From the NCBI GenBank assembly GCA_003221005.1, contig QHTZ01000067.1:38116-102115 (forward strand): a stretch of 64,000 nt of DNA, read 5' to 3'. Below are positions 12,569 through 31,087 of the stretch, one piece after another. Origin of the DNA: Gemmatimonadota bacterium. GTDB taxonomy: Bacteria; Gemmatimonadota; Gemmatimonadetes; Gemmatimonadales; GWC2-71-9. The position numbers were made by a program, and so were the translations under genes. The notes below the pieces were generated by a model that saw only the letters and a list, made by a program, of their open reading frames with translations, had not been told where the DNA came from and ran no database searches. Numbering within the stretch: the stretch's first letter is position 1; every line of letters starts with the position of its first letter.

Positions 12569-13954
12569 TTACACCCCGCCGTTGTTCCCCGCGAGGGCGA
12601 GCAACGCCTCGCGCGCCTTGCGCGCCTCCTCCCGCGCCGTGGCGCCGTTCGTCGCGTCGAGGCGGTGCGACTCGACTTCGTGGCGCAGCCAGCGATCGGC
12701 GTACCGGTACAGCTCGCGCGGATACCGGCCGCGCACGTCATAGTCACGATCGGTGGCCGCGGCCCAATCGCGGGTTGCAACGACGCGGTCGCCCAGCTCC
12801 CGGAAGTACGCCGTGTTCTTGATCGGGTACGCGACCGTGGTGAGGAAAACGTCGGGATCGGCGCGCCTCACGAGCGCGACCGTCTCCGCGATGTCGTCCA
12901 CGGTCTCGCCCTCGTAGCCCCACATCAGGAACATGCCGACCCGAAGCCCATGGCGCTTGGCGGCCCGGGTGGCGAAGAGCACCTGCTCCACGGTGACGCC
13001 GCGCTCCATTGCGTCCAGGATCCGCTGGCTCCCGCTCTCCGCGCCGATCCAGATGCGCCAGCAGCCCATCTCGGCCAGCGTGCGCAGAACGTCCTCCTGC
13101 ATCATGCGGTCGGCCCGGGAGATCGTTTCGAAGGGCACGCGCAGGCGCCGACGTTGCAGCTCGGCGGCATAGTCGTACAGCCAGCGATGGTGAATCGTGA
13201 ACACGTCATCCGCATACCAGACGATGTCCGGCCGGTAGCGCTGCACCAGGAACTCGAGCTCGTCGGCGACGCCGGCGACGCTGCGGCGCCGATGGGTGTA
13301 GCCGAAAACGGCGTGCGAGCACCAGCGGCAGCGATAGGGACAGCCGCGCGCCGTGATCAGGTTCACACTCCCGGTTCCGTGATGCGTGCGCCACACATCC
13401 ACATACCGCTGGACGTCGATCGCGTCGCGATCAGGCCACGGGAGGGCATCGAGGTCGCGGATCTGGGGGCGGTCCGGATTGATGACAACGGTGCCGCTCT
13501 CGTCCCGAAAGGCCGCGCCAGCCATGCCGTGCAGCCGGTGCGGCCCGCGCGCGTCGAGAGCGGGGAGCAGCTCGACCATGGTCTCCTCGCCCTCGCCGAA
13601 CACCACGACGTCGGCACCGCGCGCCAAGTACTCTGCCGGGTAGTTGGCGGCCTCGGGGCCGCCGAGCACGACGGTCCAACCCTGTGACTTGGCCCGGGTG
13701 ACGAGGTCCAGCACCGACCCCCGCGTGATGAGATTCGTGTATACGCCGAGGACGCCGGCAGGCGCCGTTCCGAGCCGCGCGGCGAGCGCATCGCGGGTGG
13801 CAAAGGTGGTGTCGAACACCTCGACGCCCAGACCCGCGCGCCGCAGATACGCGGCGACGTAGAGCAGCCCGAGGGGCGGGTACGGCTTCATCACTTCCCG
13901 CTCCTTCGGGTCGTCGTCGAGGAAGTAGCCGTGGGTGAGGAGAATGTCGGTCAT
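12569..13954 (-). CDS. B12-binding-domain radical SAM enzyme (#1)
   Basis: N-terminal Rossmann-like region (PPLGLLYVAAYLRRAGLGVEVFD, VVFGEGEETMVELL) and the CxxxCxxC motif in ITARGCPYRCRWCSH. Start trimmed to MTDILLTHGY. Confidence 0.85.
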   Translation of the reverse strand: MTDILLTHGYFLDDDPKEREVMKPYPPLGLLYVAAYLRRAGLGVEVFDTTFATRDALAARLGTAPAGVLGVYTNLITRGSVLDLVTRAKSQGWTVVLGGPEAANYPAEYLARGADVVVFGEGEETMVELLPALDARGPHRLHGMAGAAFRDESGTVVINPDRPQIRDLDALPWPDRDAIDVQRYVDVWRTHHGTGSVNLITARGCPYRCRWCSHAVFGYTHRRRSVAGVADELEFLVQRYRPDIVWYADDVFTIHHRWLYDYAAELQRRRLRVPFETISRADRMMQEDVLRTLAEMGCWRIWIGAESGSQRILDAMERGVTVEQVLFATRAAKRHGLRVGMFLMWGYEGETVDDIAETVALVRRADPDVFLTTVAYPIKNTAYFRELGDRVVATRDWAAATDRDYDVRGRYPRELYRYADRWLRHEVESHRLDATNGATAREEARKAREALLALAGNNGGV

Positions 13955-13961
13955 GAACGGC

Positions 13962-14762
13962 TCAGCGCACAACCGTTTCCCAGACGTCGAAGCGGGACGG
14001 GGGGCGGCGGCCCAGCGCACGGGCGGCAAGCGGGCGAAGCTCGTACCAAAGGGGATAGCGCACGCGGTGACGGCGCCAAGAGAGGTGGAAGGGCGCCGAC
14101 GCGGCGGCGAGCCGATCCGCTGTGAGATACTCGATCATCCGCAGCGCGAGCAGGTCGGCGGCGCGATCCCCCCATTCCCGGCGTGCGGTCTCACGTTTTT
14201 CAGCGACCATCCGTTCTCCATCTACGGCACGCCCGTAGAACGGGCTGTCAAGGATAACGAGCCGGCCTCCGGGAAGGGTCGCGCGGACCGCCTCCCCGAT
14301 CGTCCCGTCGAGTGACGACGTGTAATGGATGGCGGCGTTAAAGACGACGAGATCGAACGCGCGCTTCACGGGAAGCGCGTCGAAGGACGCCGCCACGCGG
14401 GACAACGCCGGCGCGAGGTGAGCCCCGTACGCCGCGCCCGCGCCAAGGCCATCCACCGCGTCGCGCCGCCAATCGAGCGCGACGCACCGATGGCCCTGCA
14501 GCGCGAGCCGGTAGCAGAGCCAGCCGTTCCCCGCTCCCAGGTCCAGGACGTTGAGCGGTTGCGGAGCCCGGGCCCGCCTCAGTGGCGCCACCACCGCGCG
14601 CAGCAAGCACTCGTAGCTCCGGGCCCGCACGGCCCACTGACGCGCCAGCGGTCCTGTGCGGAGATACGGGAGAGCGAGGAGCTCTGCGACTCCCCTTGAA
14701 CCGCGGCCCTCGGCCTCCCGGTGCTTGGCGTAAGCCGTGCGGAATCGCGCCGACGTCGTCAT
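13962..14762 (-). CDS. Class I SAM-dependent methyltransferase (#1)
   Basis: Motif I VLDLGAGNGWLCYRLALQGHRCVALD. Confidence 0.8.
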   Translation of the reverse strand: MTTSARFRTAYAKHREAEGRGSRGVAELLALPYLRTGPLARQWAVRARSYECLLRAVVAPLRRARAPQPLNVLDLGAGNGWLCYRLALQGHRCVALDWRRDAVDGLGAGAAYGAHLAPALSRVAASFDALPVKRAFDLVVFNAAIHYTSSLDGTIGEAVRATLPGGRLVILDSPFYGRAVDGERMVAEKRETARREWGDRAADLLALRMIEYLTADRLAAASAPFHLSWRRHRVRYPLWYELRPLAARALGRRPPSRFDVWETVVR

Positions 14763-14823
14763 CGGTCGAAGGTTAGCGGGTCGCTATTGGACCCGCCAGT
14801 TCCTGGGTAGATTACCCGGTTCG

Positions 14824-15609
14824 ATGTCATCCGCCGTAGCTTTCGAGACGCTCGCGCCTGAGTACGACGCGCGCTTCACCCAGAGCATGATCGGGCGATT
14901 GCTGCGCCGAGCCGTGTGGCACTGGCTCGACCGTGCCTTCGCGCCCGGTGAACGCGTCCTCGAGCTCAACTGCGGGACCGGCGAGGACGCGATGCACCTG
15001 GCCGCTCGGGGCGTGCGCATCCTCGCAACCGACGCTTCCCCCGCGATGCTCGATCTCGCACGGGCCAAGGTCAGCGATGCGGGGCTCGGCGGCCTTATCG
15101 AAATGCGGCTGACGGCGATCGACCGTCTCGCCGACTTGCGGGGGGAACTCCGGGAGGCGCTGGACGGCGCCTGGTCGAGCTTCGGCGGCCTCAACTGCGT
15201 GGCCGACGTGCCCGGCGCAGCTCGGGGTCTCGCCCCGCTGCTCAGGCCGGGGGCGCGCGTCGTGCTGTGTGTGATGGGGCCCCTGGTGCCATGGGAATGG
15301 GCGTGGTTCCTGATGCGGGGACAGGTGCGCAGCGCCCTGCGTCGGCTCACACGGGGCGGCGTGCCGTGGCGAGGGGTGACGGTCCGGTACCCGTCCATTC
15401 GCGCGCTGCGGCGGGCGTTCGCCCCGGGTTTCGTCGTCCGGCGTGTAGGCGGGCTCGGCGTGCTCCTCCCGCCCACCTACGCGGAAGCGTGGGCGCGCCG
15501 CCATCCGCACCTGATCGCACGCCTCGACCGGTGGGAGCGCCGCATCGAGCGCTGGCCCATCGTGCCTTGGCTCGGCGATCACTGCCTGCTGGAGCTGGAG
15601 CGGCGATGA
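14824..15609 (+). CDS. Class I SAM-dependent methyltransferase (#2)
   Basis: Motif I VLELNCGTGEDAMHLAARGVRILATDASPAML. Start trimmed to the ATG (MSSAVAF). Confidence 0.8.
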   Translation: MSSAVAFETLAPEYDARFTQSMIGRLLRRAVWHWLDRAFAPGERVLELNCGTGEDAMHLAARGVRILATDASPAMLDLARAKVSDAGLGGLIEMRLTAIDRLADLRGELREALDGAWSSFGGLNCVADVPGAARGLAPLLRPGARVVLCVMGPLVPWEWAWFLMRGQVRSALRRLTRGGVPWRGVTVRYPSIRALRRAFAPGFVVRRVGGLGVLLPPTYAEAWARRHPHLIARLDRWERRIERWPIVPWLGDHCLLELERR

Positions 15610-17009
15610 AGCGGCGCGTCGTACTCTACAACCCAGTGGCCGCGTTCCACACCATGCCACTCGCGCTCGTCGCGATCGGCTCCCATCTCGACCGCGAGCG
15701 GTACGAGCCGCTGATCGTGGATGGGCGACTGGAGCCCGACGCAGTGGGTCGTGTGCTGCAAGCGGCTGAGGGTGCGTTGTGCGTCGGGGTCACGGTGCTC
15801 ACCGGGGAGCCGATTCGCGACGCGGTGAGGATCTCGCGCGCGGTCAAGGCACGATATCCTGATCTTCCCGTGGTCTGGGGCGGTTGGCACCCGTCGATGT
15901 TTGGCGTCCAATGCCTCGAGGAGCCAAGCGTCGACGTCACCGTGCAGGGCCAGGGCGAGGTCACGTTCCTCGAGATCGTGGATCGCCTGGCCCGCGGCGA
16001 TGCGCTCGACGGTTGTCTCGGTTGCTCCCATCGGGCGAACCACGGCGCCGTGACGCGAAACGCCTCCCGGCCGCTCGAGGACGTCAACGCCTTTCGCCCG
16101 CACGATTACACGCTGATCGACATCGAGCGGTATTACGGGCTCAAGGGCAAGAAGCAGCTCGACTACATCGCCTCCCAGGGGTGCCGCTTCCGCTGCGCGT
16201 TCTGCGCCGATCCGTTCGTCTACCAGCGCCGCTGGGTCGGGCTCGACCCCGCCCGCGTGGGCTTCGAGATCGAGCAGTGGTGGTTCCGCTACCGCTTCAC
16301 GGACGTCAACTTCCAGGACGAGACCTTCTTCACGTCGACGCCACGCGTGGTGGCAATCGCGGAGGAGTTCATCCGTCGGGGACTGCCCATCACTTGGGCC
16401 GCCACGATGCGCGCCGATCAATGTGTGCGCATGACCGATGACGCTTTCGAGGTGTGCAAACGCTCCGGACTGCGGCGGGTCCTCGTCGGCGTCGAATCTG
16501 GGTCACCAGAGATCCTCAAGCGCATCAAGAAGGACATCACGATCGAGCAGGTTCTGGAAACCGCGGCGCGCTGCCGGGCGCTGGGCCTCAGGGTGCAATT
16601 CCCGTTCATCGTTGGCTTCCCCGACGAGGACGAGGATAGCGTCTCGGCGACGCTCGCGCTTGCCAAGCGGCTGCGGGCCATGAGTCCCGACTTTGAGACG
16701 ATGATCTTCTACTTCAAGCCGTATCCCGGCTCCGCGCTGACCGAAGACGCGGTACGCCGCGGCTACGAACTGCCCCGCACGCTCGAGGCGTGGTCCACGT
16801 TCGACTACGTCGGTTCCGCGGGCCCCTGGGTCTCGCGTGAGAAGTACCGCCGCATGGAGCGATTCAAGTTCTACGAGCGGCTGGCCTGGGACCGGGTACC
16901 AGCGTGGAAGAAACCGCTCCAGAGGCTCGCGCGCTGGCGCTGCCGCCAGGATGCGTACGGGTTTCCCGTTGAGAAACTGGTACTAGGAGCGACCTCTGGA
17001 CTTCGCTGA
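15606..17009 (+). CDS. B12-binding-domain radical SAM enzyme (#2)
   Basis: MKRRVVLYNPVAAFHTMPLALVAIGSHL..., VQGQGEVTFLEIV and CxxxCxxC in ASQGCRFRCAFCAD. The ATG overlaps the upstream stop (ATGA). It looks paralogous to the 25596..27074 gene. Confidence 0.85.
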   Translation: MKRRVVLYNPVAAFHTMPLALVAIGSHLDRERYEPLIVDGRLEPDAVGRVLQAAEGALCVGVTVLTGEPIRDAVRISRAVKARYPDLPVVWGGWHPSMFGVQCLEEPSVDVTVQGQGEVTFLEIVDRLARGDALDGCLGCSHRANHGAVTRNASRPLEDVNAFRPHDYTLIDIERYYGLKGKKQLDYIASQGCRFRCAFCADPFVYQRRWVGLDPARVGFEIEQWWFRYRFTDVNFQDETFFTSTPRVVAIAEEFIRRGLPITWAATMRADQCVRMTDDAFEVCKRSGLRRVLVGVESGSPEILKRIKKDITIEQVLETAARCRALGLRVQFPFIVGFPDEDEDSVSATLALAKRLRAMSPDFETMIFYFKPYPGSALTEDAVRRGYELPRTLEAWSTFDYVGSAGPWVSREKYRRMERFKFYERLAWDRVPAWKKPLQRLARWRCRQDAYGFPVEKLVLGATSGLR

Positions 17010-17522
17010 CCACCCCCTCCCGGGGCCCACCTGAATAGAGGGTGTTCGCGTGACTCCGCGACCTACTACCATCCGCCCACACCCACCTCCCGCCCGCAGT
17101 CTTGTCGAAATCCATTCCGCAGACGCGAGTTCAGGGTGGGCTGCCTTGAAGCCCGTGTAGTAGGTGAATGCGGAATACAAGAGCCCCAGGGAACTGGTAA
17201 CCACCCAGCGCCGAGCGCAATTCCCGATCCAACCAAAGCTTCTGTTTGATCCCCAGCGGCCCGGCCGCTGCGAATTGGGAGAATCCGCGCGGCGCGACAC
17301 CGAGAAAGGTCTCTAGAATGCGATCGAACTTCAGGATCGGCTTTTTCGTACCGCCTCGCCCAGGCAGTACTCCACGGGGCGGGCGGGGAAGCCGGCGTCG
17401 CCCTTCTTACGGGTGAACCGCTGCTCCGACGCGGCGGCGACGATCTCGCCATCGGCCAGCAGCGCGGCGGCGCTGTCGTGATAGTACGCCGAAATCCCGA
17501 GGATTCGTACGGAGCGGGCCAA
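17010..17522 (-). pseudogene. Carbamoyltransferase (NodU/CmcH family) remnant: truncated and frameshifted
   Basis: The minus strand reads (L)ARSVRILGISAYYHDSAAALLADGEIVAAASEQRFTRKKGDAGFP...YCLGEA and then hits a stop. The family sequence resumes in another frame (KKPILKFDRILETFLGVAPRGF...) at an A5 run and dies after about 70 codons. Only about 0.5 kb remains of a gene that is normally about 1.7 kb. Confidence 0.7.
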
Positions 17523-17532
17523 CCGCAACCCC

Positions 17533-18753
17533 CTAATTGGACCGATGAAAGGGGGGGCGCTCGCGGAAGTGCGCAACCAGCACCCGCGCAAGCAACAGAG
17601 AGCCGTGATCGTTAAAGTGGACGTCGTCGTACAGCGCCGTCGTGTCAGCTGGAACCACTTTTGCCGCATCCACACAGTCGAGTCCTCGTTCGCGGCAGAC
17701 CTCGAGCAGGGTCCCGTTGTACCGCGCCATCGCGCGGCTCAGCGCGCGGGTCGTGAAGTACCGCGCAGACTGACGATCCTTGCCCAACCACCCGAACCAT
17801 AGCAGGCGCTCCTCCGCGTCGGACATACCGTCACGCCACGCGCTGGGCTGCGTGACGAACACGAGCCGCACGCGAGCTGCCGCCGCGAGGTCCGCCATCG
17901 CGTTGAGGTTCCGTCGGTACTCGATCAGGGGCCCCTCGAGCGGCGGGAGACTGTCGATCCACTCCTTGGTGTCGTGGCGACGGAGGCGTGCCCCCTGGAG
18001 GAAGCCCGGGCCGCCGCCCCGCCACGCGAGGCTCCGGTTCCGGGCCAACCTCACCCGTCGCGCGAGTTGCCACAGCACCGTCGCTTTGTACCAGGGAACG
18101 TTGAGAGTGCGAATCGCATCTTGAATTCCGCCGGGGACACGTGCGAACGCCCGTTTTAGCTGCTCGTTTTCCGCACCGGGCTCCGTCACGAGCGCAGGAA
18201 GGCGATATCCCCATCCTTGCTGCAGGGCGGACATCATGTCGTTTACCCCGACGAGGGAGACGACGACGTCGATATGGGGATACTGCGGCAGGAGGTACTT
18301 GAGGTGCAGCACATGATCCCGGGTATTCGCGCCGCTACGGCCGACGTTCCCGACCCACACCTGTCTCCCATCCGCCGTTCGGTCGAGATCCGTCTCGAGC
18401 AGGTGGGTCCAGACGTTGGTGTCATCCAGGACCCAACACTGCGTAGTGCTTCCCCCGACGGCGAGGATGCGGTATTCGGTGCGGTCGTCTCCGAAAGGCC
18501 GCCCCCGCACGCCGAAGCGATTGACTCGGACGTGCGACACACCTTCCACGCCGTGGATCACGTCGGGCGCCGCTGTCACCGTCCAGTCCGTGCCTGGCTC
18601 GAGCACGAAGTAGCCGCGGGAGGGCGGCAGCACCTCGCGCAGCACAAGCTCCGCCGCGGCTAGGGCCACGATGACCGACACGGCTGCCAGGGCGAGGTTG
18701 GAAAGAGCCCCAGCGATGCGAGCGCGCCAAGTCGCCGGGGAGCCTGGGAGCAC
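17533..18753 (-). CDS. Membrane-anchored SGNH/GDSL-type hydrolase (esterase or acyl-transfer family)
   Basis: N-terminal TM helix. SGNH blocks ILAVGGSTTQC, GNVGRSGANT, LVGVNDMM and DDVHFNDHG. Confidence 0.7.
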   Translation of the reverse strand: MLPGSPATWRARIAGALSNLALAAVSVIVALAAAELVLREVLPPSRGYFVLEPGTDWTVTAAPDVIHGVEGVSHVRVNRFGVRGRPFGDDRTEYRILAVGGSTTQCWVLDDTNVWTHLLETDLDRTADGRQVWVGNVGRSGANTRDHVLHLKYLLPQYPHIDVVVSLVGVNDMMSALQQGWGYRLPALVTEPGAENEQLKRAFARVPGGIQDAIRTLNVPWYKATVLWQLARRVRLARNRSLAWRGGGPGFLQGARLRRHDTKEWIDSLPPLEGPLIEYRRNLNAMADLAAAARVRLVFVTQPSAWRDGMSDAEERLLWFGWLGKDRQSARYFTTRALSRAMARYNGTLLEVCRERGLDCVDAAKVVPADTTALYDDVHFNDHGSLLLARVLVAHFRERPPFHRSN

Positions 18754-18779
18754 CGGAGCTCCGATCGTGCCGCCCAGTT

Positions 18780-25456: not shown

Positions 25457-25595
25457 GATCGCCCGTGCGCAGGATTTCGTCTCGGTAGCAATCAGTCACC
25501 AGCCCTGGAGATGCCGCTGCAGATCGAAGGAGGACGACGTCGTGCCCGTGCTGGGAGCGCCGGCGATGATGAAGTTCGGAAGCCGCGCGGCGGGC

Positions 25596-27074
25596 TCAGA
25601 ACCCACTGGTCTCGGGTCGTTGATAGCGCACGAGTCGTTGCAGCGCTTGCAGTTCGAGCGGCAAACCGTAAAGGCGCGTCCGGTATCGCCACGCGCTCAC
25701 CCCGCGGAGCACCCTGCGCCACATGCCCGTCAGATGCGCGTCGGTGGACGTCGGATAGTACGCATTGAGCACGCGCTCAAAATCGCGGACTCGCTGCCGC
25801 AGGGCGCGATTGAGCCAGGGCACCACGTCGCTGTACCGTTGCGCAAACCGTTGCCAAGGGTCGCTGATCCATTCGTCGAGCGTTTTGGGAAAATGAAAGC
25901 CCTCCGCCTGCGCTGCGTCGTACAAGTCGCCTGCGAGCGGTACTGGCGTGTAGTTGTACATGATGATCTCGCTGCGCGAATTGATCACCTTGACGCGGCG
26001 GATGAACTCGATCGTGTGGCGCACGTCGCCTTCCGCGTCTGGCGGGTTCCCCAACACAAACGAAAATTCTGGCACGATGTCGTAGTCCTTCATCTTACCG
26101 GCTAACTCGAGCGTCTTGTCGGGCGACATCGTGCCGCCCTTGTCCATTCGCTGTAACGTCTCGAGCGATCCAGATTCCGCGCCCAGAAAAACCATCTTCA
26201 GACCCGAATCGCGCATCAGGCGCCACGTCTTCTCGGAGTACTTCAGCAGCGTGTCAATGCGCGCCTCGCCCCACCACGCCAGCCCGAGCGGCAGGATGCG
26301 TTCGGCGAATTCCGCAGTGCGCGCCTCGTGGGTGAAGAAATTGTTGTCGTAGAATTCGATCGCGTTGATGCGCCATTCGTTCACGTACATTTGCGCAATG
26401 TCGGCCACGCGCGCCGCGGCCTGAGGCAGCCAGCGCCCGTTCACCATGTTCACCACGGCGCAAAAATTACAAAAGAAGGGACAGCCGTAGCTCGAATGAT
26501 GTGGCAGAGTGCGCGACCCGAGGAAGGTCGGTCGGATGTAGCGCTGAATGTCAATCCGATGATAGGGGAACGGCGGGAGACGGTCGGGGTGCGGAATTGG
26601 CGCGAGTCCATTCTGCACTACCTGGCCGCTCGCATCCCGATATGCCAACCCTGCGATGCCACCATGATCGGAATTCTTCCCCAATGCATCCAGCAAATTC
26701 AGGAACACCGTCTCGCCGTGGCCGCGCACCGTGAAGTCGACCGCGGGGTCCTGGAGAATCACGTCTGAGTGCTGTGTCGGGAAATAGCCGCCCCACACGA
26801 TCTGCAGATGCGGAAATTCCCTCTTCAAGGCGCGCGAATGCGGCACCGCCCACGCCAGCTGCGGTCCGGGCATCACCGTGATCGCCAACAGATTCGCGCC
26901 CGCCGTGATTCGCGCTCGCAGCGTCGTCAGCGCGTCGCCTTCGCAATTCCCGTCCACCAGGGTGTACTCGTAGTTGCCTTCGAGCAGCGCGCCCAACGCG
27001 AGCAGCGACATAGGCAAGATCCGCTTACCCGAGCCGTTGCTCACGGGATTGTAGAACACAATGTTCGGCCTCAT
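25596..27074 (-). CDS. B12-binding-domain radical SAM enzyme (#4)
   Basis: MRPNIVFYNPVSNGSGKRILPMSLLALGALL, VRGHGETVFLNLL and CxxxCxxC in SSYGCPFFCNFCA. ATGA overlap with the upstream methyltransferase. Confidence 0.85.
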   Translation of the reverse strand: MRPNIVFYNPVSNGSGKRILPMSLLALGALLEGNYEYTLVDGNCEGDALTTLRARITAGANLLAITVMPGPQLAWAVPHSRALKREFPHLQIVWGGYFPTQHSDVILQDPAVDFTVRGHGETVFLNLLDALGKNSDHGGIAGLAYRDASGQVVQNGLAPIPHPDRLPPFPYHRIDIQRYIRPTFLGSRTLPHHSSYGCPFFCNFCAVVNMVNGRWLPQAAARVADIAQMYVNEWRINAIEFYDNNFFTHEARTAEFAERILPLGLAWWGEARIDTLLKYSEKTWRLMRDSGLKMVFLGAESGSLETLQRMDKGGTMSPDKTLELAGKMKDYDIVPEFSFVLGNPPDAEGDVRHTIEFIRRVKVINSRSEIIMYNYTPVPLAGDLYDAAQAEGFHFPKTLDEWISDPWQRFAQRYSDVVPWLNRALRQRVRDFERVLNAYYPTSTDAHLTGMWRRVLRGVSAWRYRTRLYGLPLELQALQRLVRYQRPETSGF

Positions 27075-27766
27075 GGAGCCACGCGAATCTCGTACACGGT
27101 CAATTTCTCGTTGATCAAGTCGCGTTCGCGTACGACACGCACGCTCAGATGGGTTGCCGACCACAGCGCCGTGGCGATGTCGCCATCACTCGAGAGCACG
27201 ACGAGAGCGCGCCCCCCGGGCGTCAGGTGTGCGGGGACCTCACGCAGAAAGCGATCGAAGACATCGAGGCTCCGCCATGCGGAGTCGGAGAGGTTCCGCG
27301 GCCGGCCGCGAAAGTACGGGGGGTTGAAGAGGATCACGTCAAAGCGCTCACCGTGCACCGGCTCGAACAAATCGCCCACGCGGATTTCAATCCGCCGTTC
27401 GAGGCCGTGCGCCAGGGCGTTGAGCTGGGCACAGCGTGCCGCTTGCGGGTTAATGTCCGTCGCAATCACTTGCGCGGCGTAGCGGGCGGCAAAAATCGCA
27501 CCCAGGCCAGAGCCAGTGCCGACGTCGAGCGCGCGCGCGTCGGGTGGACAGATGTTCACATTGAGCGTCTGTGCGAGAAAGGCGCCCGTCCGCAGCTGCG
27601 CGCCGTTGAAAACGCCAGGGAGCACGACGATCCGCACCCCGCTGACGGTGTCGACGCGCAGCTGTGTATCCTCCCGCAACCGCAGCCGTCGCCACAGGCG
27701 CCAAGACCAGCGAGATACCGCGCGGGCCCAGCCCTGGCTGCCCGCGCCCCATTGCCCCAGGTTCAT
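27071..27766 (-). CDS. NPPY-motif SAM methyltransferase (HemK/PrmC-like small-domain MTase)
   Basis: ALDVGTGSGLGAIFAA and DVILFNPPYF. GGAGG lies 6 nt upstream of the ATG at 27766. Confidence 0.75.
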   Translation of the reverse strand: MNLGQWGAGSQGWARAVSRWSWRLWRRLRLREDTQLRVDTVSGVRIVVLPGVFNGAQLRTGAFLAQTLNVNICPPDARALDVGTGSGLGAIFAARYAAQVIATDINPQAARCAQLNALAHGLERRIEIRVGDLFEPVHGERFDVILFNPPYFRGRPRNLSDSAWRSLDVFDRFLREVPAHLTPGGRALVVLSSDGDIATALWSATHLSVRVVRERDLINEKLTVYEIRVAP

Positions 27767-27785
27767 GCGCGACCTCCGGGGCTGT

Positions 27786-28859
27786 TCATAGCGCCGTCCG
27801 CACTCCGACCTGCAGTGTGCAGACGCAGCGGCGACAAGTCGCGTCTGCTGCAACATTCAATCCGCGCCGAAACGCGACCATCTCGTTCGCCAAGATCTCG
27901 CGCAAGCGCCTTTCGCGAATGTTGCCAACCACCGGGTGGAAATAGCACGGACGTACCGCGCCGTCGGCTTCGACCACGGCGCTTGCCCACGGCGCGTTGC
28001 ACCGTACCGAGGGAAAGTCAGCAAGCCCGCGCTGTGCGGCGTAGTACTTGGGCAACCGCCGCAACTTCTCCGGTGCCTCGGCAACAAACCGGGACTCGAA
28101 ATCCCTGGCGTGTGAGGCAATGGTGTCCTCAACCACCCGCGCGAATTCCTCGATCTCGTCCTTCTTCAGGAGCAGTCCTCGCATCGAGGACGCTGTCCGC
28201 AAGGTCCTCTCCGCTGCGGCGCCACCCGCCGTAGACGTTCGTCCGAACGCTTCGCTCGTCACGTCGGCGGCAAGAAACGAGATCCCATCGAGTCCCATGG
28301 CGTGCGCCTTGTCGATCAACTGGGACAGCTCCCCAAAGTTGTGACGATGGATGGTGCTGCGCGCCAGCACGGGCATCAGCGGCGACAAGGTCTTCAAGCG
28401 TTTCACGCCGCTCTCGATTACCCTGAGCCCGTCCACCCCGCGAATCTGGTGATACAGCGAGGCGGTGTGCCCGTCCAGGGAAATTGTCACCCGCTCAAAG
28501 TGCTCGACGACCGCCGCCGCATCACGTTCGAGAAACAAGCCGCTCGTCAGCAGATGCAATCTCACGCCGCGGGCTCGGAACAGCGCAGCAATCTGGTACA
28601 CGTCGCGCCGCAGCGTCGGCTCCCCGCCCGAGAACGTCACCAGCCGCGTCCTGAGGGCTGGCAGCTCGTCGGTCAACCCGCGAATCTCGTCGAGCGTCAA
28701 ATCGCCGGCACCATCCGCCTTCCACCAGTCGCACGACACGCAGCGGGAGTTGCAGCGCGCGGTCGGAAAAAAAATGAGGATCGGCAGGGCAAACGTGCGA
28801 TCGGTCGCGCGATTGAGCTGCACGAGCAAATTGCTCGTGACCTGCGGGAGCGTTAACAT
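27786..28859 (-). CDS. Radical SAM enzyme with a C-terminal SPASM-type Cys cluster
   Basis: CxxxCxxC in FPTARCNSRCVSCDWW. C-terminal Cys-rich region VRCNAPWASAVVEADGAVRPCYF...TCRRCVC. Confidence 0.8.
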   Translation of the reverse strand: MLTLPQVTSNLLVQLNRATDRTFALPILIFFPTARCNSRCVSCDWWKADGAGDLTLDEIRGLTDELPALRTRLVTFSGGEPTLRRDVYQIAALFRARGVRLHLLTSGLFLERDAAAVVEHFERVTISLDGHTASLYHQIRGVDGLRVIESGVKRLKTLSPLMPVLARSTIHRHNFGELSQLIDKAHAMGLDGISFLAADVTSEAFGRTSTAGGAAAERTLRTASSMRGLLLKKDEIEEFARVVEDTIASHARDFESRFVAEAPEKLRRLPKYYAAQRGLADFPSVRCNAPWASAVVEADGAVRPCYFHPVVGNIRERRLREILANEMVAFRRGLNVAADATCRRCVCTLQVGVRTAL

Positions 28860-29065
28860 GGCTTTGGAGAGAGTCTATAGTAGCGTGCCTACGGAATGTC
28901 CACACGTGGAGTGGCTCACCCTCGAGCAGCCGCACCCCAGCCCGGCGTCGCTTCCTGAGACGGCTTGCCTTTCATGAAGTCATTGCCGTTCTGGGCCTCG
29001 GGGCGCCAGTGCCGTCGGCACGTATGCGAACAGCATGAAGCCGCTGAGACAGGTATCGTTCCTCC

Positions 29066-30040
29066 GTGAACCCAGGCACGCTGATATCGATCATCATTCC
29101 CACGTACAACCGGGCCAGGCTCCTGCGTGAAGCGGTGGAGTCGGTCCTCGCTCAAACATATCACGACTGGGAGCTGCTCGTGATTGACGACGGCTCTACC
29201 GACGGCTCCCGCACGTACCTCGGGACGCTCGCCCACCGGCGCCTTCGCCCGGTCCTGTTGGAGCACTCCGGCAACGCAGCACGGGTTCGCAATGCGGGAC
29301 TTCGCGCAGCCCGTGGCTCATACATCGCGTTCCTGGATTCGGACGATCTCTGGCACCCGGAGAAACTCGCACTTCAGATCGAGGACATGCACGCGCATCC
29401 TGAATGTGGCTGGAGCTATACTGGTCTGGCGCTTGTGGACGAGCGGGGGCAAGAGATCCCGCCGGTTGGCGGCCGCCGTGTGCCAGCTCAGCGGGGCTGG
29501 ATTCTCGAGGCCTTGATCAAGGGACAGGCTATCGCCGCCACCTCAGCAGTGCTCGTGCGGCGACAACTGCTCCAGAGGGTGGGCGACTTCGATGAATCCC
29601 TGCCCGTTTGTGAGGAGATCGATCTCTTCTTCAGATTCGCCGAGGCGAGCCCGGCGACCGTCGTGTGCCGGCCGTTGGTGTCGTGCCGTCGCCACCCGGG
29701 AAATGGGCCCTGGCCCCCCCTCGACGTCCTCGAGTGCAGGAATCGGGTTTACGACGGCCTGCTGGCCCGCACGTCGTCGCGGCGGCTGCGGCGCATCTGT
29801 CGACGGAGCAAGCTACGATTCACCGTGGCCCATCTGGGCAGGCTGCGAAGGACCGGGCTGTACGCCGAAACTCGACAGGCGCTTTCAATGTCGTTCCCGT
29901 ATGCAGGATTGCACCCGGCGTGGTGGGTCGCGTGCCTCCAGACATGGCTGCGGCGTTCGCCGGGAGGTGGGCCAGCGTCCCTCCGGCCCCCCCAAGGCCG
30001 TGCTGATCCGCCGCCAGTGGCTCGCGGTTCTTCTTCCTGA
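29066..30040 (+). CDS. GT2-family glycosyltransferase
   Basis: ISIIIPTYNRARLLREAVESVLAQTY...LLVIDDGSTDGS and FLDSDD. Confidence 0.85.
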   Translation: MNPGTLISIIIPTYNRARLLREAVESVLAQTYHDWELLVIDDGSTDGSRTYLGTLAHRRLRPVLLEHSGNAARVRNAGLRAARGSYIAFLDSDDLWHPEKLALQIEDMHAHPECGWSYTGLALVDERGQEIPPVGGRRVPAQRGWILEALIKGQAIAATSAVLVRRQLLQRVGDFDESLPVCEEIDLFFRFAEASPATVVCRPLVSCRRHPGNGPWPPLDVLECRNRVYDGLLARTSSRRLRRICRRSKLRFTVAHLGRLRRTGLYAETRQALSMSFPYAGLHPAWWVACLQTWLRRSPGGGPASLRPPQGRADPPPVARGSSS

Positions 30041-30094
30041 CAGTCAGTCATTGCGCACGCCGCGATGACGCTCAAGACGAGCCGGACCGTCCAG

Positions 30095-31087
30095 TCAGCG
30101 GAGCCACGCCGAGAGGTCGCGGCCAATGAAGTCGGCTGTGCCCAAGATCTGTTCGCGGTAGTAGTCGATGACCATGGCGCGATCGGCGGGATCCATGGTC
30201 ACGGCGGTCCGCGGTCCGCGGTACAGGCGCACGAGGAGTCGGCGGGCCGGTTCAGGGAGCCGAGTCGTCAGGGCTACCTCGCCAAGCAACCGTCGGCGCA
30301 AGGCGTGCAGGCGCGGGAACCGCGGTACGACGGGCACATTGTGCCGGCGCGATAGGTCCACTGGCACGTCGGGATCGATCTCCAGGAACTCAAAGATGTC
30401 CCGCAACACCGACCGCGCGTCCGCGCAAAAATCCTCGTATAAGTAGACGCGGAGGTGCTTTCGGGGGAACAAGGCCGCGTAGCGCTGCAGGTGGGTCGCG
30501 TATCGCCCCACGAGCACCCTCAGACCCTTCCAGGGATCCGGTCGGTCCGCTGCCTCGAGAAACTGAGCGCGGAATGTCTGGAGGCGGGGACGACGCCACA
30601 GGTTCGCCGCATACTCTGAGAACAGTCGCTGAGCCGGGTCTCGCAGCACGAAAATTAGGCGCGCGTCCGGCACGTGCGCGTGAATCGCCTCAGCGGCGCT
30701 GGGTAACCAGACATGATCGACGCTCGCGTCACCGATGGCGGTCTCCTCGCGCACACGCTGGAAGAGCTCCAGATAGTCCTCCCACTTTGCGACGACCCAC
30801 CTTCTCCCAGATACGTACTCCCACTTCGCGACTGCCCACCGTCTCTCAGGCTCCACCAGGCCCTTCCAATGCGGGTGCAAGTCTTCGAGCTCCTGCATTG
30901 ACTGGCGCACGACGCGATCACCGTTCGCGTCAGACAGGATGTCGGCCGCTCCGAAGAACGTCGGCTCCTTTGGCCAGCACATGTAAACCTGGGGATGTTG
31001 TTGCAGGTAGGCGTACAGCGAGGAGGTGCCGGCTTTGGGCACGCCCGCGAGAAAGAACGTCGGGAGCTTGCCCGTACCAGGTGTCAT
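30095..31087 (-). CDS. PAPS-dependent sulfotransferase
   Basis: 5'-PSB loop FFLAGVPKAGTSSLYAYL. 3'-PB motif FVLRDPAQRLFSEY. Confidence 0.8.
   Translation of the reverse strand: MTPGTGKLPTFFLAGVPKAGTSSLYAYLQQHPQVYMCWPKEPTFFGAADILSDANGDRVVRQSMQELEDLHPHWKGLVEPERRWAVAKWEYVSGRRWVVAKWEDYLELFQRVREETAIGDASVDHVWLPSAAEAIHAHVPDARLIFVLRDPAQRLFSEYAANLWRRPRLQTFRAQFLEAADRPDPWKGLRVLVGRYATHLQRYAALFPRKHLRVYLYEDFCADARSVLRDIFEFLEIDPDVPVDLSRRHNVPVVPRFPRLHALRRRLLGEVALTTRLPEPARRLLVRLYRGPRTAVTMDPADRAMVIDYYREQILGTADFIGRDLSAWLR

What the first reader, a model, noticed from the sequence alone, without database searches (positions are those of the whole stretch)
12569..31087. An 18.5-kb accessory cluster with five radical SAM enzymes and glycan-decorating enzymes
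Seventeen consecutive genes form this cluster. They include four B12-binding-domain radical SAM enzymes (two paralogous pairs), one radical SAM/SPASM enzyme and three SAM methyltransferases. Also present are an HprK-like P-loop kinase, an SGNH hydrolase and a GT4-GNAT-PIG-L-GT4 block. A GT2, a PAPS sulfotransferase and a decayed carbamoyltransferase complete the set. I saw no polymerase/flippase (Wzx/Wzy), no Wza/Wzc and no obvious precursor peptide. The enzyme set suggests a glucosamine-containing glycoconjugate that is de-N-acetylated, re-acylated, C- or O-methylated (cobalamin-dependent), sulfated and formerly carbamoylated. That list of decorations recalls Nod-factor tailoring (NodB/A/S/U/H logic), but it uses unrelated radical chemistry. 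I cannot match this combination to a described pathway.
Basis: partly seen in the sequence, partly recalled or inferred. Interest (0 to 1): 0.75.

Follow-up and report, generated by a model that had tools for sequence, protein, structure and literature searches.

The report
Conserved radical-SAM and glycan-tailoring gene cluster
This is a real 17-gene cluster, conserved in uncultured soil bacteria, that joins sugar-adding and sugar-decorating enzymes to an uncharacterised module of radical-SAM enzymes, methyltransferases and a new kinase-like protein; its product is unknown but is most likely a decorated cell-envelope glycoconjugate.

Summary

The gene set is not a chance juxtaposition. I found the same genes in similar order in 13 further loci. 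Relatives are labelled Gemmatimonadales or Gemmatimonadetes, which suggests the window's phylum. A reduced version occurs in Thermoanaerobaculia and other Acidobacteriota. A sub-block occurs in Chloroflexi.

The cluster is composite:
- A near-universal core: a PEPCK/HprK-fold P-loop protein next to a class-B radical SAM enzyme, plus methyltransferases, more class-B radical SAM enzymes and a SPASM enzyme.
- A Gemmatimonadota-type glycan block: GT4, tandem GNAT, PIG-L, GT4.
- Variable tailoring genes: 1-3 sulfotransferases, GT2, 1-3 SGNH proteins, and carbamoyltransferase-SxtJ-DUF5989. Two relatives keep that trio intact exactly where the window has the remnant.

No cluster protein reaches the cut-off of a function-specific NCBIfam model. 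No conserved precursor peptide, PqqD/RRE, Wzx/Wzy or priming transferase appears in the window or in the loci I examined.

My best reading (about 0.45) is a cell-envelope glycoconjugate carrying GlcNAc that is de-N-acetylated, re-N-acylated, methylated, sulfated and formerly carbamoylated. A protein or peptide modification system remains a serious rival. I rate it a new variant of a known kind, of moderate to high interest.

The parts
12267..12491 (-). Small Met-rich lipoprotein ORF (74 aa; signal peptide plus lipobox LLAAC). Belongs to the cluster only tentatively.
   Evidence: Homologous ORFs sit directly downstream of the rSAM1 orthologue region in L007 and L059. Absent after rSAM1 in L064 and from all reduced-type loci. 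No Pfam family.
12569..14029 (-). rSAM1, a class-B (B12-binding domain) radical SAM enzyme and paralogue of rSAM3.
   Evidence: PF02310 scores 64 bits and PF04055 79 bits. CX3CX2C lies at residue 230. It is 36% identical to rSAM3. Orthologues at 83-87% occur in L007, L059, L062, L064 and L065, and at 65% in L013. Best NCBIfam match is BchE at 141 bits against a cut-off of 481.
13962..14762 (-). MTb, a class I SAM methyltransferase.
   Evidence: Pfam Methyltransf_11/23/25/31. Orthologues at 52-75% occur in L062, L064, L008, L066, L011, L012, L060 and L061.
14737..15609 (+). MTa, a class I SAM methyltransferase found in every related locus that shows this region.
   Evidence: Pfam Methyltransf_25/12/11. 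Orthologues at 41-74% occur in all 12 compared loci. Best NCBIfam match is CpaM at 54.6 bits against a cut-off of 180.
15606..17009 (+). rSAM2, a class-B radical SAM enzyme and paralogue of rSAM4.
   Evidence: PF02310 and PF04055. CX3CX2C lies at residue 193. Best NCBIfam match is HpnJ at 121 bits against a cut-off of 578. Orthologues occur in the Gemmatimonadota loci (79-81%), L008 (58%) and Chloroflexi L068 (51%, beside GNAT-PIG-L).
17145..17504 (-). Carbamoyltransferase pseudogene (N-terminal about 190 codons, frameshifted and truncated).
   Evidence: PF02543 Carbam_trans_N at E=3.9e-12 on the translated fragment. tblastn with the intact 607-aa L065 protein matches residues 4-66, 61-118 and 174-193 in two frames. 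An intact gene plus SxtJ and DUF5989 sits at the same position in L062 and L065.
17533..18753 (-). SGNH/GDSL-family hydrolase or acyltransferase with an N-terminal membrane anchor.
   Evidence: PF13472 at 48.9 bits. One hydrophobic segment lies at residues about 11-43 with Arg residues before it, so the catalytic domain is probably periplasmic (inference). One to three paralogues occur in L062 and L065.
18780..20252 (-). rSAM3, a class-B-like radical SAM enzyme and the constant neighbour of the P-loop protein.
   Evidence: PF04055 scores 69.8 bits. PF02310 scores only 25 bits, below its cut-off of 32. CX3CX2C lies at residue 229. Orthologues at 57-84% lie adjacent to the P-loop gene in all 12 compared loci, downstream of it in 11 and divergent from it in L060. 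Closest solved structures are MgmA (9CCB, E=3e-21) and AprD4 (PMC11796369).
20144..21136 (-). PEPCK/HprK-fold P-loop protein, a putative kinase from a new subfamily.
   Evidence: Walker A GAGKST and a GDES motif are invariant. The AF2 model has pLDDT 90.7. All top 50 Foldseek PDB matches are PEP carboxykinases (E down to 5e-8, TMq 0.36-0.44). TIGR04352 scores 32.5 bits against a cut-off of 200. The tight subfamily has about 45 clusters at 50% identity, inside a superfamily of about 12,600.
21291..22406 (+). GT4a, a family 4 glycosyltransferase.
   Evidence: PF00534 and PF13692. Orthologues at 66-71% occur in L007, L059, L062, L064 and L065.
22403..23458 (+). Tandem-GNAT acyltransferase.
   Evidence: PF13527. 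No PDB or NCBIfam sequence match. The AF2 model has pLDDT 91.4. Its best Foldseek matches are N-myristoyltransferases (E=1e-17, TMq 0.64, about 350 aligned columns). It is always followed by PIG-L, also in L067 and Chloroflexi L068.
23448..24332 (+). PIG-L/LmbE-family de-N-acetylase.
   Evidence: PF02585 at 74 bits. The motifs APHPDDE and DFHPEH are present. Closest structures are TT1542, diacetylchitobiose deacetylase and BcZBP.
24329..25456 (+). GT4b, a family 4 glycosyltransferase.
   Evidence: PF00534, PF13692 and PF13579. Closest solved relatives include BshA and MshA. Homologues also occur in the reduced-type loci L060 (46%) and L061 (40%), and in L067 (37%).
25596..27074 (-). rSAM4, a class-B radical SAM enzyme.
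   Evidence: PF02310 and PF04055. CX3CX2C lies at residue 198. It is 30% identical to rSAM2. Orthologues occur in L059 (82%) and at 37-43% in L008, L066, L011, L012, L060 and L061.
27071..27766 (-). HemK/MTS-type methyltransferase with an NPPY motif, probably an N-methyltransferase.
   Evidence: PF05175 at 70 bits. TIGR00537 (HemK2/MTQ2 family) scores 88 bits against a cut-off of 87. NPPY lies at residues 148-151. Orthologues occur in L007, L059 and L008.
27786..28859 (-). Radical SAM/SPASM enzyme without an N-terminal peptide-recognition domain.
   Evidence: PF04055 and PF13186. CX3CX2C starts at residue 36, which leaves no room for an RRE. Closest structures are BlsE (E=2.5e-9) and PqqE. Orthologues occur in L062, L065, L059 (split), L008, L066, L013, L060 and L068.
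29066..30040 (+). GT2, a family 2 glycosyltransferase.
   Evidence: PF00535 at 108.8 bits, starting at residue 8 of the ORF that begins at 29066. Homologues at 44-54% occur in L007, L062 and L064.
30095..31087 (-). PAPS-type sulfotransferase.
   Evidence: PF13469 and PF00685. The PKAGTSS and RDPxxR motifs are present. Closest structures are 3rnl and heparan sulfate glucosamine 3-O-sulfotransferases. Relatives carry one to three paralogues.

Best explanation
The region is a composite biosynthetic cluster for a decorated glycoconjugate of the cell envelope. The acceptor is most likely a membrane glycolipid or an LPS-core-type oligosaccharide.

Inferred chemistry of the glycan block:
1. A GT4 transfers GlcNAc to an acceptor.
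2. The PIG-L enzyme removes the N-acetyl group.
3. The tandem GNAT re-acylates the free amine. Its N-myristoyltransferase-like fold leaves open a long acyl chain.
4. The second GT4 and the GT2 extend the glycan.

Inferred tailoring:
- The NPPY methyltransferase N-methylates.
- The other two methyltransferases O- or N-methylate.
- The sulfotransferase sulfates.
- The membrane-anchored SGNH protein (de)acylates on the periplasmic side.
- O-carbamoylation has been lost in this genome.

The conserved core is the PEPCK/HprK-fold P-loop protein with rSAM3, plus MTa/MTb, further class-B radical SAM enzymes and the SPASM enzyme. I infer that it makes or remodels an unusual moiety by ATP-dependent phosphorylation and radical C-H chemistry such as C-methylation, dehydration or ring rearrangement. 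That moiety could be a modified sugar or sugar phosphate that the glycosyltransferases then use or carry.

What is shown: gene content, intact catalytic motifs, folds and co-conservation. What is inferred: every substrate, the order of steps and the cellular location.
For: Co-conservation:
- Synteny holds across 13 further loci.
- Start and stop codons overlap within GT4a-GNAT-PIG-L-GT4b, rSAM4-MTS and MTa-rSAM2.

Affinities to carbohydrate enzymes:
- GT4b is nearest BshA and MshA.
- PIG-L is nearest the chitobiose deacetylase/LmbE proteins and keeps its motifs.
- The sulfotransferase is nearest heparan sulfate glucosamine sulfotransferases.
- The SPASM enzyme is nearest the sugar-nucleoside decarboxylase BlsE and has no RRE.
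- rSAM2 and rSAM3 match the aminoglycoside enzyme AprD4.

Links to the envelope or LPS in relatives:
- GT9 heptosyltransferase-like genes lie at or inside the cluster in L007, L059, L060 and L061. They belong to two distantly related GT9 lineages.
- PagL is adjacent in L008.
- GT-C/PMT_2-like polytopic proteins sit at the cluster edge in L065, L066 and L067.
- An AlgX-type protein accompanies GNAT-PIG-L-GT2-GT4 in L067.
- The carbamoyltransferase comes with the membrane proteins SxtJ and DUF5989 in L062 and L065.
- The SGNH protein is membrane-anchored.

Link between radical SAM enzymes and the glucosamine pair:
- Orthologues of GNAT, PIG-L, SPASM and rSAM2 sit side by side in a Chloroflexi locus.

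Against a peptide substrate:
- No conserved precursor ORF, PqqD/RRE, protease or exporter appears in any locus.
Against: - No acceptor, lipid carrier, priming phosphoglycosyltransferase, flippase or nucleotide-sugar gene is present in the window or in the loci I examined. The scaffold is therefore unknown.
- In the window itself no LPS gene lies nearby.
- The core exists without the glucosamine block in Acidobacteriota.
- The nearest characterised relatives of several core enzymes act on proteins: HprK-related kinases, MgmA, HemK2/MTQ2 and N-myristoyltransferase.
- All similarities to characterised enzymes are remote, and all but one fall below family cut-offs. TIGR00537 for the MTS methyltransferase is the exception.
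- LPS or glycolipid tailoring by four class-B radical SAM enzymes has no precedent that I know of.
Confidence: 0.45

Rival explanations
1. The cluster is a protein or peptide post-translational modification system, either RiPP-like or aimed at a dedicated protein. In this reading the HprK-related P-loop protein phosphorylates a Ser or Thr. The MgmA-like class-B radical SAM enzymes C-methylate side chains, and the NPPY (HemK-like) methyltransferase N-methylates amides. The SPASM enzyme cross-links or epimerises. The N-myristoyltransferase-like GNAT acylates an amine. The glycosyltransferases and sulfotransferase decorate the product. The substrate would be encoded elsewhere, or would be the small Met-rich lipoprotein at 12267-12491.
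For: - The nearest characterised relatives of core enzymes act on proteins. rSAM3 matches MgmA/TIGR04014.
- The MTS methyltransferase passes the HemK2/MTQ2 cut-off and has NPPY.
- More distant full-length relatives of the P-loop protein give weak hits to HprK-related kinases A and B, HPr kinase and ScmC.
- The GNAT model is N-myristoyltransferase-like.
- NTP_transf_5 flanks the cluster in two loci. From my own knowledge, this family accompanies HPr-kinase-like enzymes in some lasso-peptide clusters.
- A small lipoprotein with a conserved PMM(Y/F) motif lies next to rSAM1 in three loci.
Against: - No small ORF is conserved across the 13 loci compared. The lipoprotein occurs in only three Gemmatimonadota loci and is absent after rSAM1 in L064.
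- There is no PqqD/RRE gene, and the SPASM enzyme has no room for an N-terminal RRE.
- There is no leader peptidase or ABC exporter.
- The P-loop model matches PEP carboxykinase, a small-molecule enzyme, and no HPr kinase appears in the top 50.
- PIG-L, the sulfotransferase and the GT4s have carbohydrate-type nearest relatives.
Confidence: 0.27
2. The cluster is a membrane-lipid remodelling pathway. In this reading the class-B radical SAM enzymes and methyltransferases modify hydrocarbon chains or polycyclic lipids by methylation, cyclisation or coupling. The glycan block builds a glucosamine-containing head group, as in GPI-type or GlcN-phosphatidylglycerol-type lipids.
For: - The radical SAM enzymes give sub-threshold matches to the lipid enzymes HpnJ, HpnR and the ladderane-lipid B12 radical SAM protein.
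- Both GT4s give weak matches to the GlcNAc-phosphatidylglycerol synthase model.
- PIG-L is the family of the GPI GlcNAc-PI de-N-acetylase.
- A weakly CMAS-like methyltransferase lies beside a flavin-reductase-like protein in L061, and homologues of that pair occur in L064.
- PagL is adjacent in L008.
- No exporter would be needed.
Against: - No lipid-synthesis gene (squalene-hopene cyclase, acyl or alkyl transferases, fatty acid synthesis genes) occurs in any locus.
- The matches to lipid radical SAM families are no better than those to BchE, ApyD, PhpK or MgmA, and lie 3-5 fold below the cut-offs.
- One to three sulfotransferases plus a carbamoyltransferase and one to three SGNH proteins point to a glycan rather than a lipid tail.
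Confidence: 0.18
3. The genes do not form one pathway. Two or three unrelated operons (a radical SAM/methyltransferase operon, a glycan operon and tailoring genes) are merely adjacent in a variable genomic region.
For: - The modules occur separately. The core occurs without GNAT-PIG-L in Acidobacteriota. GNAT-PIG-L-GT occurs without the core in L067.
- Gene order and tailoring content vary between loci.
- The block 25.6-31.1 kb has lower GC (0.61-0.66) than the rest of the cluster.
Against: - The same combination recurs in seven Gemmatimonadota-type loci, although their flanking genes differ.
- GNAT-PIG-L rejoins SPASM and rSAM2 in a different phylum.
- GT4b homologues accompany the reduced core in L060 and L061.
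- The divergent promoter region between the P-loop gene and GT4a is conserved in position.
Confidence: 0.1

Closest known systems
GlcNAc transfer, then de-N-acetylation, then N-acylation: Nod factor (NodC/NodB/NodA with NodS, NodU, NodH), lipid A (LpxA/LpxC/LpxD), teicoplanin (Gtf/Orf2*/Orf11*) and mycothiol (MshA/MshB/MshD). These pathways are cited from established knowledge.
   Same: A glycosyltransferase, a de-N-acetylase and an N-acyltransferase are encoded side by side. N-methyltransferase, sulfotransferase and (ancestrally) carbamoyltransferase tailoring parallels NodS, NodH and NodU. GT4, PIG-L and a tandem GNAT are the same three enzyme families as MshA, MshB and MshD. PIG-L is also the family of teicoplanin Orf2*.
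   Different: None of the proteins reaches an orthologue threshold. MshA scores 51 bits against a cut-off of 462, and BshB1 scores 49 against 182. There is no NodC-type chitin synthase, no CE4 NodB, no NodA, no cysteine ligase and no NRPS. Five radical SAM enzymes and a PEPCK/HprK-fold protein have no counterpart in any of these pathways.
LPS core oligosaccharide tailoring clusters, for example the Pseudomonas aeruginosa core with kinases, a carbamoyltransferase, GT4 and GT9 enzymes, and LPS sulfation in Sinorhizobium. Cited from established knowledge.
   Same: Assembly is cytoplasmic by GT4, GT2 and GT9-type enzymes without Wzx, Wzy or Wza. There is a kinase-like enzyme, carbamoylation and sulfation. 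Relatives carry GT9 heptosyltransferase-like genes, and one has PagL adjacent.
   Different: The window itself has no GT9 and no lipid A or Kdo genes. The GT9 proteins of the relatives score below the WaaC, WaaF and WaaQ cut-offs. Radical SAM enzymes are not known in LPS core synthesis.
Sugar-modifying class-B and SPASM/twitch radical SAM enzymes of antibiotic pathways: GenK and GenD1, MoeK5, AprD4, BlsE and BtrN. Cited from established knowledge and the review PMC12931638.
   Same: Class-B radical SAM enzymes sit beside glycosyltransferases, a de-N-acetylase and, ancestrally, a carbamoyltransferase. AprD4 and BlsE are among the closest solved relatives of rSAM2/rSAM3 and of the SPASM enzyme.
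   Different: The similarities are remote (E from 1e-9 to 1e-15). There is no cyclitol or 2-deoxystreptamine synthase, no aminotransferase set and no resistance or export genes. The four radical SAM paralogues belong to uncharacterised subfamilies.
HprK-related kinases of peptide-modification cassettes: TIGR04352 and TIGR04355, ScmC of the SynChlorMet cassette, and lasso-peptide kinases.
   Same: They share the P-loop and GD(D/E) kinase motifs and a size of about 320 aa. They also share the neighbourhood of radical SAM/SPASM enzymes, and in two loci an NTP_transf_5 nucleotidyltransferase.
   Different: The score is 32.5 bits against a cut-off of 200. There is no PqqD, lasso cyclase or precursor. 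The AF2 model resembles PEP carboxykinase over both domains, not HPr kinase. The constant partner is a class-B radical SAM enzyme, which is not a feature of those cassettes.

Membership tests
Class B (cobalamin-dependent) radical SAM enzymes | Radical SAM core with a CX3CX2C cluster motif | tested here: met
   PF04055 matches all four enzymes. One CX3CX2C motif lies in each, at residues 230, 193, 229 and 198.
Class B (cobalamin-dependent) radical SAM enzymes | N-terminal B12-binding (Rossmann) domain above the family threshold | tested here: inconclusive
   PF02310 scores 64 bits for rSAM1, 43 for rSAM2 and 36 for rSAM4, all above the cut-off of 32. rSAM3 scores only 25 bits, and its match is 'faint' or absent in orthologues. 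Cobalamin binding itself cannot be tested here.
Class B (cobalamin-dependent) radical SAM enzymes | Membership of a characterised subfamily (BchE, HpnJ, HpnR, PhpK, MgmA/QCMT, GenK-type and others) | tested here: not met
   The best scores (141, 121, 105 and 116 bits) lie 3-5 fold below the curated cut-offs.
Radical SAM/SPASM peptide maturases (RiPP type) | SPASM domain with auxiliary-cluster cysteines | tested here: met
   PF13186 scores 44 bits. Five Cys residues lie in the C-terminal region.
Radical SAM/SPASM peptide maturases (RiPP type) | RRE/PqqD domain, fused or adjacent, and an adjacent precursor peptide gene | tested here: not met
   CX3CX2C starts at residue 36, so there is no N-terminal domain. 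No PqqD hit occurs in any locus. No small ORF is conserved across the 13 loci compared.
HPr kinase/phosphorylase and HprK-related kinases A/B | Score above the curated family cut-off | tested here: not met
   TIGR04352 scores 32.5 bits against a cut-off of 200. There is no hit to TIGR00679. A profile search against PDB finds only P-loop-level matches.
HPr kinase/phosphorylase and HprK-related kinases A/B | PEPCK/HprK-type P-loop kinase fold with Walker A and an acidic GD(D/E) motif | tested here: met
   GAGKST and GDES are invariant. The AF2 model has pLDDT 90.7. Foldseek matches PEP carboxykinases at E=5e-8 with probability 1.00.
Mycothiol/bacillithiol-type pathway (MshA/BshA, MshB/BshB, MshD) | Orthologue-level matches to the GT4, deacetylase and GNAT, plus a cysteine ligase (MshC/BshC) | tested here: not met
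   All matches are far below cut-off. MshA scores 51 against 462, BshA 53 against 274 and BshB1 49 against 182. No ligase gene is present in the cluster.
Wzx/Wzy- or ABC-dependent polysaccharide (capsule, O-antigen, EPS) loci | Priming phosphoglycosyltransferase, flippase/polymerase or ABC exporter, Wza/Wzc | tested here: not met
   No polytopic membrane protein lies in window 12.5-31.1 kb. None of these families appears in the Pfam results for the window or for the Pfam-annotated related loci.
LPS core biosynthesis cluster | GT9 heptosyltransferase, Kdo or lipid A genes within or beside the cluster | tested here: inconclusive
   These genes are absent from the window. GT9-like genes occur in 4 of the 12 compared loci (L007, L059, L060, L061) and PagL in one, but all score below equivalog cut-offs.
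NodU/CmcH-type O-carbamoyltransferase | Intact Carbam_trans_N and Carbam_trans_C domains | tested here: not met
   Only residues about 4-193 of 607 remain, and they are frameshifted. The gene is intact in L062 and L065.

The most novel reading that the evidence does not exclude
The near-universal core is the PEPCK/HprK-fold P-loop protein adjacent to a class-B-like radical SAM enzyme, plus two class I methyltransferases, a second class-B radical SAM enzyme and a SPASM enzyme. It could be a previously unrecognised biosynthetic module shared by Gemmatimonadota and Acidobacteriota. Such a module might make a new multiply methylated and phosphorylated building block, for example a branched or C-methylated sugar or another envelope constituent. 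Radical SAM chemistry would then be feeding LPS-core-like or glycolipid assembly. Alternatively it could be a new kind of protein modification system with no cis-encoded precursor.
Probability: 0.3. Interest if true: 0.8.

Novelty: new variant of a known kind. Interest (0 to 1): 0.6.

Why it matters
Gemmatimonadota and Thermoanaerobaculia are abundant soil lineages that are almost uncultured, and their envelope chemistry is essentially unknown. A conserved cluster that couples up to five radical SAM enzymes with a new kinase-like family and with glucosamine-type tailoring would define either a new class of envelope glycoconjugate or a new protein modification. It would also assign functions to several of the more than 220,000 uncharacterised B12-type radical SAM enzymes (PMC12931638). 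The comparative map gives testable units. These are a minimal five-to-eight-gene core in Acidobacteriota, a GNAT-PIG-L-SPASM-rSAM2 block in Chloroflexi, and the full set in the window. All three are small enough for heterologous expression.

Tried and rejected
- Precursor peptide search. I ran an all-against-all comparison of ORFs of at least 20-25 aa from 13 loci. Only the small lipoprotein and out-of-frame artefacts came up. The 88-aa ORF between SPASM and rSAM2 in Chloroflexi L068 has no homologue in any other locus, so I did not treat it as a precursor. From its sequence and my own knowledge it looks like a fragment of a transposase-associated domain; this was not tested with a tool.
- Curated family assignment. 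NCBIfam on all cluster proteins gave nothing above cut-off except the generic HemK2/MTQ2 model.
- NagA-like deacetylase idea for the amidohydrolase of the reduced-type loci. I rejected it because the best matches are guanine, 8-oxoguanine and formimidoylglutamate deaminase-type enzymes. The enzyme might instead deaminate the SAM by-products 5'-deoxyadenosine or S-adenosylhomocysteine, which is speculation.
- GT9 in the window. tblastn was negative.
- Mobile-element signatures. No flanking direct repeats and no integrase or transposase were seen. Only a tRNA-Pro lies 3.6 kb to the right.
- Collection scans. The metagenome scan with the single protein gave only 2 loci. The genome scan was swamped by the generic P-loop pattern and returned only Acidobacteriota-type relatives plus distant kinases.
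- Literature. Searches for the gene combination, for 'HprK-like' and for brGDGT-related radical SAM genes found no description of this cluster.
- PDB sequence searches for the methyltransferases were uninformative.

Full report
**1. What is in the window**

The window has about 69% G+C, so I picked genes by third-position GC and checked them with Pfam. A sister contig of the same population, an ENA soil-metagenome assembly, gave independent gene calls.

From 12569 to 31087 the genes are:

| Gene | Coordinates | Identity |
|---|---|---|
| rSAM1 | 12569-14029(-) | B12-binding + Radical_SAM |
| MTb | 13962-14762(-) | class I methyltransferase |
| MTa | 14737-15609(+) | class I methyltransferase |
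| rSAM2 | 15606-17009(+) | B12-binding + Radical_SAM |
| remnant | about 17145-17504(-) | carbamoyltransferase pseudogene |
| SGNH | 17533-18753(-) | SGNH protein with an N-terminal membrane anchor |
| rSAM3 | 18780-20252(-) | class-B-like radical SAM |
| P-loop | 20144-21136(-) | PEPCK/HprK-fold protein |
| GT4a | 21291-22406(+) | glycosyltransferase family 4 |
| GNAT | 22403-23458(+) | tandem GNAT |
| PIG-L | 23448-24332(+) | de-N-acetylase |
| GT4b | 24329-25456(+) | glycosyltransferase family 4 |
| rSAM4 | 25596-27074(-) | B12-binding + Radical_SAM |
| MTS | 27071-27766(-) | MTS/HemK-type methyltransferase |
| SPASM | 27786-28859(-) | Radical_SAM + SPASM |
| GT2 | 29066-30040(+) | glycosyltransferase family 2 |
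| ST | 30095-31087(-) | sulfotransferase |

- All five radical SAM proteins keep one CX3CX2C motif.
- The four B12-type enzymes fall into two paralogous pairs. rSAM1/rSAM3 are 36% identical and rSAM2/rSAM4 are 30% identical.
- The carbamoyltransferase fragment matches Carbam_trans_N at E=3.9e-12. It aligns to residues 4-193 of an intact 607-aa homologue, in two reading frames.
- Active-site motifs are present in PIG-L (APHPDDE, DFHPEH), in the sulfotransferase (PKAGTSS, RDPxxR), in SGNH (GGSTT...DxxH) and in the MTS methyltransferase (NPPY).
- Genes within blocks overlap by 4-11 bases, which suggests operons.

The one omission is a 74-aa lipoprotein ORF at 12267-12491(-), just outside the stated start.

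**2. Is it a unit?**

I used the P-loop protein as an anchor. It has 211 relatives in the large protein collection. The sources name them only as hypothetical proteins of Gemmatimonadales, Gemmatimonadetes and Thermoanaerobaculia MAGs. The window is therefore probably from Gemmatimonadota, by inference.

I recovered the surroundings of eleven relatives and two further loci. I then mapped all cluster proteins onto them. Two architectures emerge.

Gemmatimonadota type (window, L007, L059, L062, L064, L065 and one locus without DNA):
- GT4b-PIG-L-GNAT-GT4a is transcribed divergently from the P-loop gene and rSAM3.
- After rSAM3 come zero to three SGNH genes and, in L062 and L065, an intact carbamoyltransferase-SxtJ-DUF5989 trio.
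- Then come rSAM2-MTa, transcribed convergently, and (MTb)-rSAM1.
- Variable extras surround this. They include one to three sulfotransferases, GT2, SPASM, the MTS methyltransferase and rSAM4. Some loci also carry a methyltransferase plus flavin-reductase-like pair, a GT9 gene or a PMT_2-type membrane protein.

Reduced type (Thermoanaerobaculia/Acidobacteriota L008, L011, L012, L013; also L060, L061 and L066, whose taxon was not established):
- The order is P-loop-rSAM3-MTa-MTb-rSAM4-type-MTd-SPASM-amidohydrolase.
- There is no GNAT-PIG-L.
- GT9 and GT4b homologues are present in L060 and L061.

The window's remnant lies exactly where L062 and L065 have the intact carbamoyltransferase trio.

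A search with the GNAT gave two more informative loci:
- Chloroflexi L068 has GNAT-PIG-L next to orthologues of SPASM (42%) and rSAM2 (51%) and two methyltransferases. It has no P-loop protein.
- L067 has AlgX-MT-GNAT-PIG-L-(PMT_2-like)-GT2-GT4 without any radical SAM gene.

The cluster is therefore built from modules that recombine, but the combinations recur across phyla. This excludes chance juxtaposition.

The flanks differ between loci. In the window they are unrelated genes: an amidase and a DUF3568 lipoprotein on the left, MsrAB and a two-component system on the right. Cluster genes have lower third-position GC (0.74-0.88) than the flanks (0.88-0.89). That fits an accessory, possibly transferred region. 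I found no mobility genes or flanking repeats.

**3. The individual proteins**

No cluster protein reaches the cut-off of a function-specific NCBIfam model. The only pass is the MTS methyltransferase on the generic HemK2/MTQ2 model, at 88 bits against a cut-off of 87.

*P-loop protein*
- It has no Pfam family of its own.
- Its AF2 model is confident (pLDDT 90.7, pTM 0.89).
- All top 50 Foldseek PDB matches are PEP carboxykinases aligned over both domains. E-values reach 5e-8 and TMq is 0.36-0.44.
- Walker A (GAGKST) and GDES correspond to the kinase-1a and kinase-2 motifs of PEPCK and HprK. Many arginines are invariant.
- An exhaustive profile search finds about 45 clusters (50% identity) in the tight subfamily. 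These sit within about 12,600 more distant proteins of about 320 aa.
- Sampled members of the distant set hit the HprK-related kinase A/B, HPr kinase and ScmC models only weakly.
- 'HprK-like' is thus right at superfamily level. The protein is a new branch, and its fold leaves a small anionic substrate as likely as a protein.

*rSAM3 and rSAM2*
- rSAM3 is always adjacent to the P-loop gene. It has only a sub-threshold B12-domain match.
- Its closest solved relatives are MgmA, the MCR glutamine C-methylase (PDB 9CCB, PMC11796369), and the aminoglycoside diol-dehydratase AprD4.
- rSAM2 scores best against HpnJ, far below cut-off, and against AprD4.

*SPASM enzyme*
- It has no room for an N-terminal peptide-recognition domain.
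- It is nearest to BlsE, a sugar-nucleoside decarboxylase, and then to PqqE.

*GNAT*
- It has no sequence match in PDB.
- Its model (pLDDT 91.4) is a tandem GNAT. The best matches are N-myristoyltransferases (E=1e-17, TMq 0.64).

*Glycan enzymes*
- GT4b is nearest BshA and MshA.
- PIG-L is nearest the LmbE and chitobiose-deacetylase proteins.
- The sulfotransferase is nearest a bacterial enzyme (3rnl) and the heparan sulfate glucosamine 3-O-sulfotransferases.

**4. Explanation**

The glycan block encodes a well-precedented logic: transfer GlcNAc, remove the acetyl group, re-acylate the amine, then extend. The same logic is known from Nod factors, lipid A, teicoplanin and mycothiol.

The tailoring genes are typical of glycans: sulfotransferases, an NPPY N-methyltransferase, SGNH proteins and a carbamoyltransferase with its two membrane partners.

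Several observations point to an envelope-bound product:
- The SGNH protein is membrane-anchored.
- GT-C/PMT_2-like proteins, an AlgX protein and PagL occur in relatives.
- GT9 heptosyltransferase-like genes lie at or inside the cluster in four loci, from two distantly related GT9 lineages.

Two gaps fit assembly on an endogenous acceptor, such as a lipid or an LPS core that general machinery exports:
- no priming transferase, flippase or polymerase is present in the window or in the loci I examined;
- no precursor peptide, RRE, protease or exporter is present.

The core's role is the least certain. I infer that it makes or remodels an unusual building block by phosphorylation plus radical chemistry.

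I give the glycoconjugate reading 0.45. A separate lipid-tail variant gets 0.18. A protein or peptide modification system gets 0.27, because the nearest characterised relatives of the kinase-like protein, rSAM3, the NPPY methyltransferase and the GNAT all act on proteins. 'Not one pathway' gets 0.10.

**5. Comparison and novelty**

The glycan half is a new combination of known enzyme families. The core half belongs to no described system. It fails the membership tests for RiPP SPASM maturases (no RRE, no precursor), for HprK-related kinases (score), for characterised class-B subfamilies (score) and for mycothiol-type pathways (score, no ligase).

Literature searches found no description of the cluster.

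Uncharacterised class-B radical SAM enzymes and orphan metagenomic clusters are very common (PMC12931638), and no product is known here. I therefore rate this a new variant of a known kind, with interest 0.6.

Noticed in passing
window 12267-12491 (-): A 74-aa ORF encodes a small lipoprotein. It has the signal peptide MMRLVSLLGFATLLLAAC, a Met-rich MDPMDPMMYRAP motif and two C-terminal Cys residues. Homologues lie downstream of the rSAM1 orthologue region in L007 and L059, but not in L064 or the Acidobacteriota-type loci. It could be a substrate, a metal- or oxidant-related passenger, or an accessory protein.
   Followed up: partly
window 11822-12232 (+): A DUF3568 lipoprotein (PF12092, E=7e-6; lipobox LVAGC) lies convergent with the small lipoprotein at the left edge of the cluster.
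   Followed up: no
window 31087-32496 (-): An MsrA-MsrB fusion ORF of 469 aa abuts the sulfotransferase start. Its SelR match stops at model position 86 of 116. The sister contig's gene call is 354 aa in another frame. This suggests a frameshift or an indel difference between assemblies.
   Followed up: no
window 34706-34788 (-): tRNA-Pro(tgg) lies 3.6 kb to the right of the cluster, beyond a two-component system. It is the only tRNA in the window. No integrase or flanking repeats were found.
   Followed up: partly
window 25596-31087: The rSAM4-MTS-SPASM-GT2-sulfotransferase block has clearly lower G+C (0.61-0.66) than the rest of the cluster (0.66-0.73) and the flanks (about 0.70). It may have a separate, more recent origin.
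   Followed up: partly
window 48926-49879 (-); L008 6948-9315: An EgtD-like histidine methyltransferase (PF10017) lies in the window 18 kb from the cluster. EgtD and EgtB genes sit directly next to the reduced cluster in Thermoanaerobaculia L008. This is probably coincidence but was not tested.
   Followed up: no
L068 7072-13587 (Chloroflexi MAG GCA_973789855.1): A compact block holds rSAM2 (51% identity), an 88-aa ORF, SPASM (42%), GNAT (44%), PIG-L (48%) and two methyltransferases. It has no P-loop protein and no GT4, and lies next to LVIVD-repeat proteins and an RHS toxin. It is a possible minimal system for experiments.
   Followed up: partly
L013 17548-18867; the locus without DNA (2581-3816): An NTP_transf_5 nucleotidyltransferase (PF14907) flanks the cluster in two unrelated loci. 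From my own knowledge, this family accompanies HPr-kinase-like enzymes in some lasso-peptide clusters. Together with the P-loop protein it could activate a phosphorylated intermediate.
   Followed up: no
L060 15920-17137; L066 17239-18399; L061 16276-17355; L013 16220-17326: The reduced-type loci carry an amidohydrolase that is closest to guanine, 8-oxoguanine and formimidoylglutamate deaminases, far below cut-offs. It might remove the SAM by-products 5'-deoxyadenosine or S-adenosylhomocysteine, or act on the product itself.
   Followed up: partly
window 7611-8558 (+): A protein with the LPG_synthase_TM domain (PF03706) lies 4 kb to the left of the cluster. This domain is often paired with lipid glycosylation or aminoacylation enzymes. 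No link to the cluster was seen in relatives.
   Followed up: no
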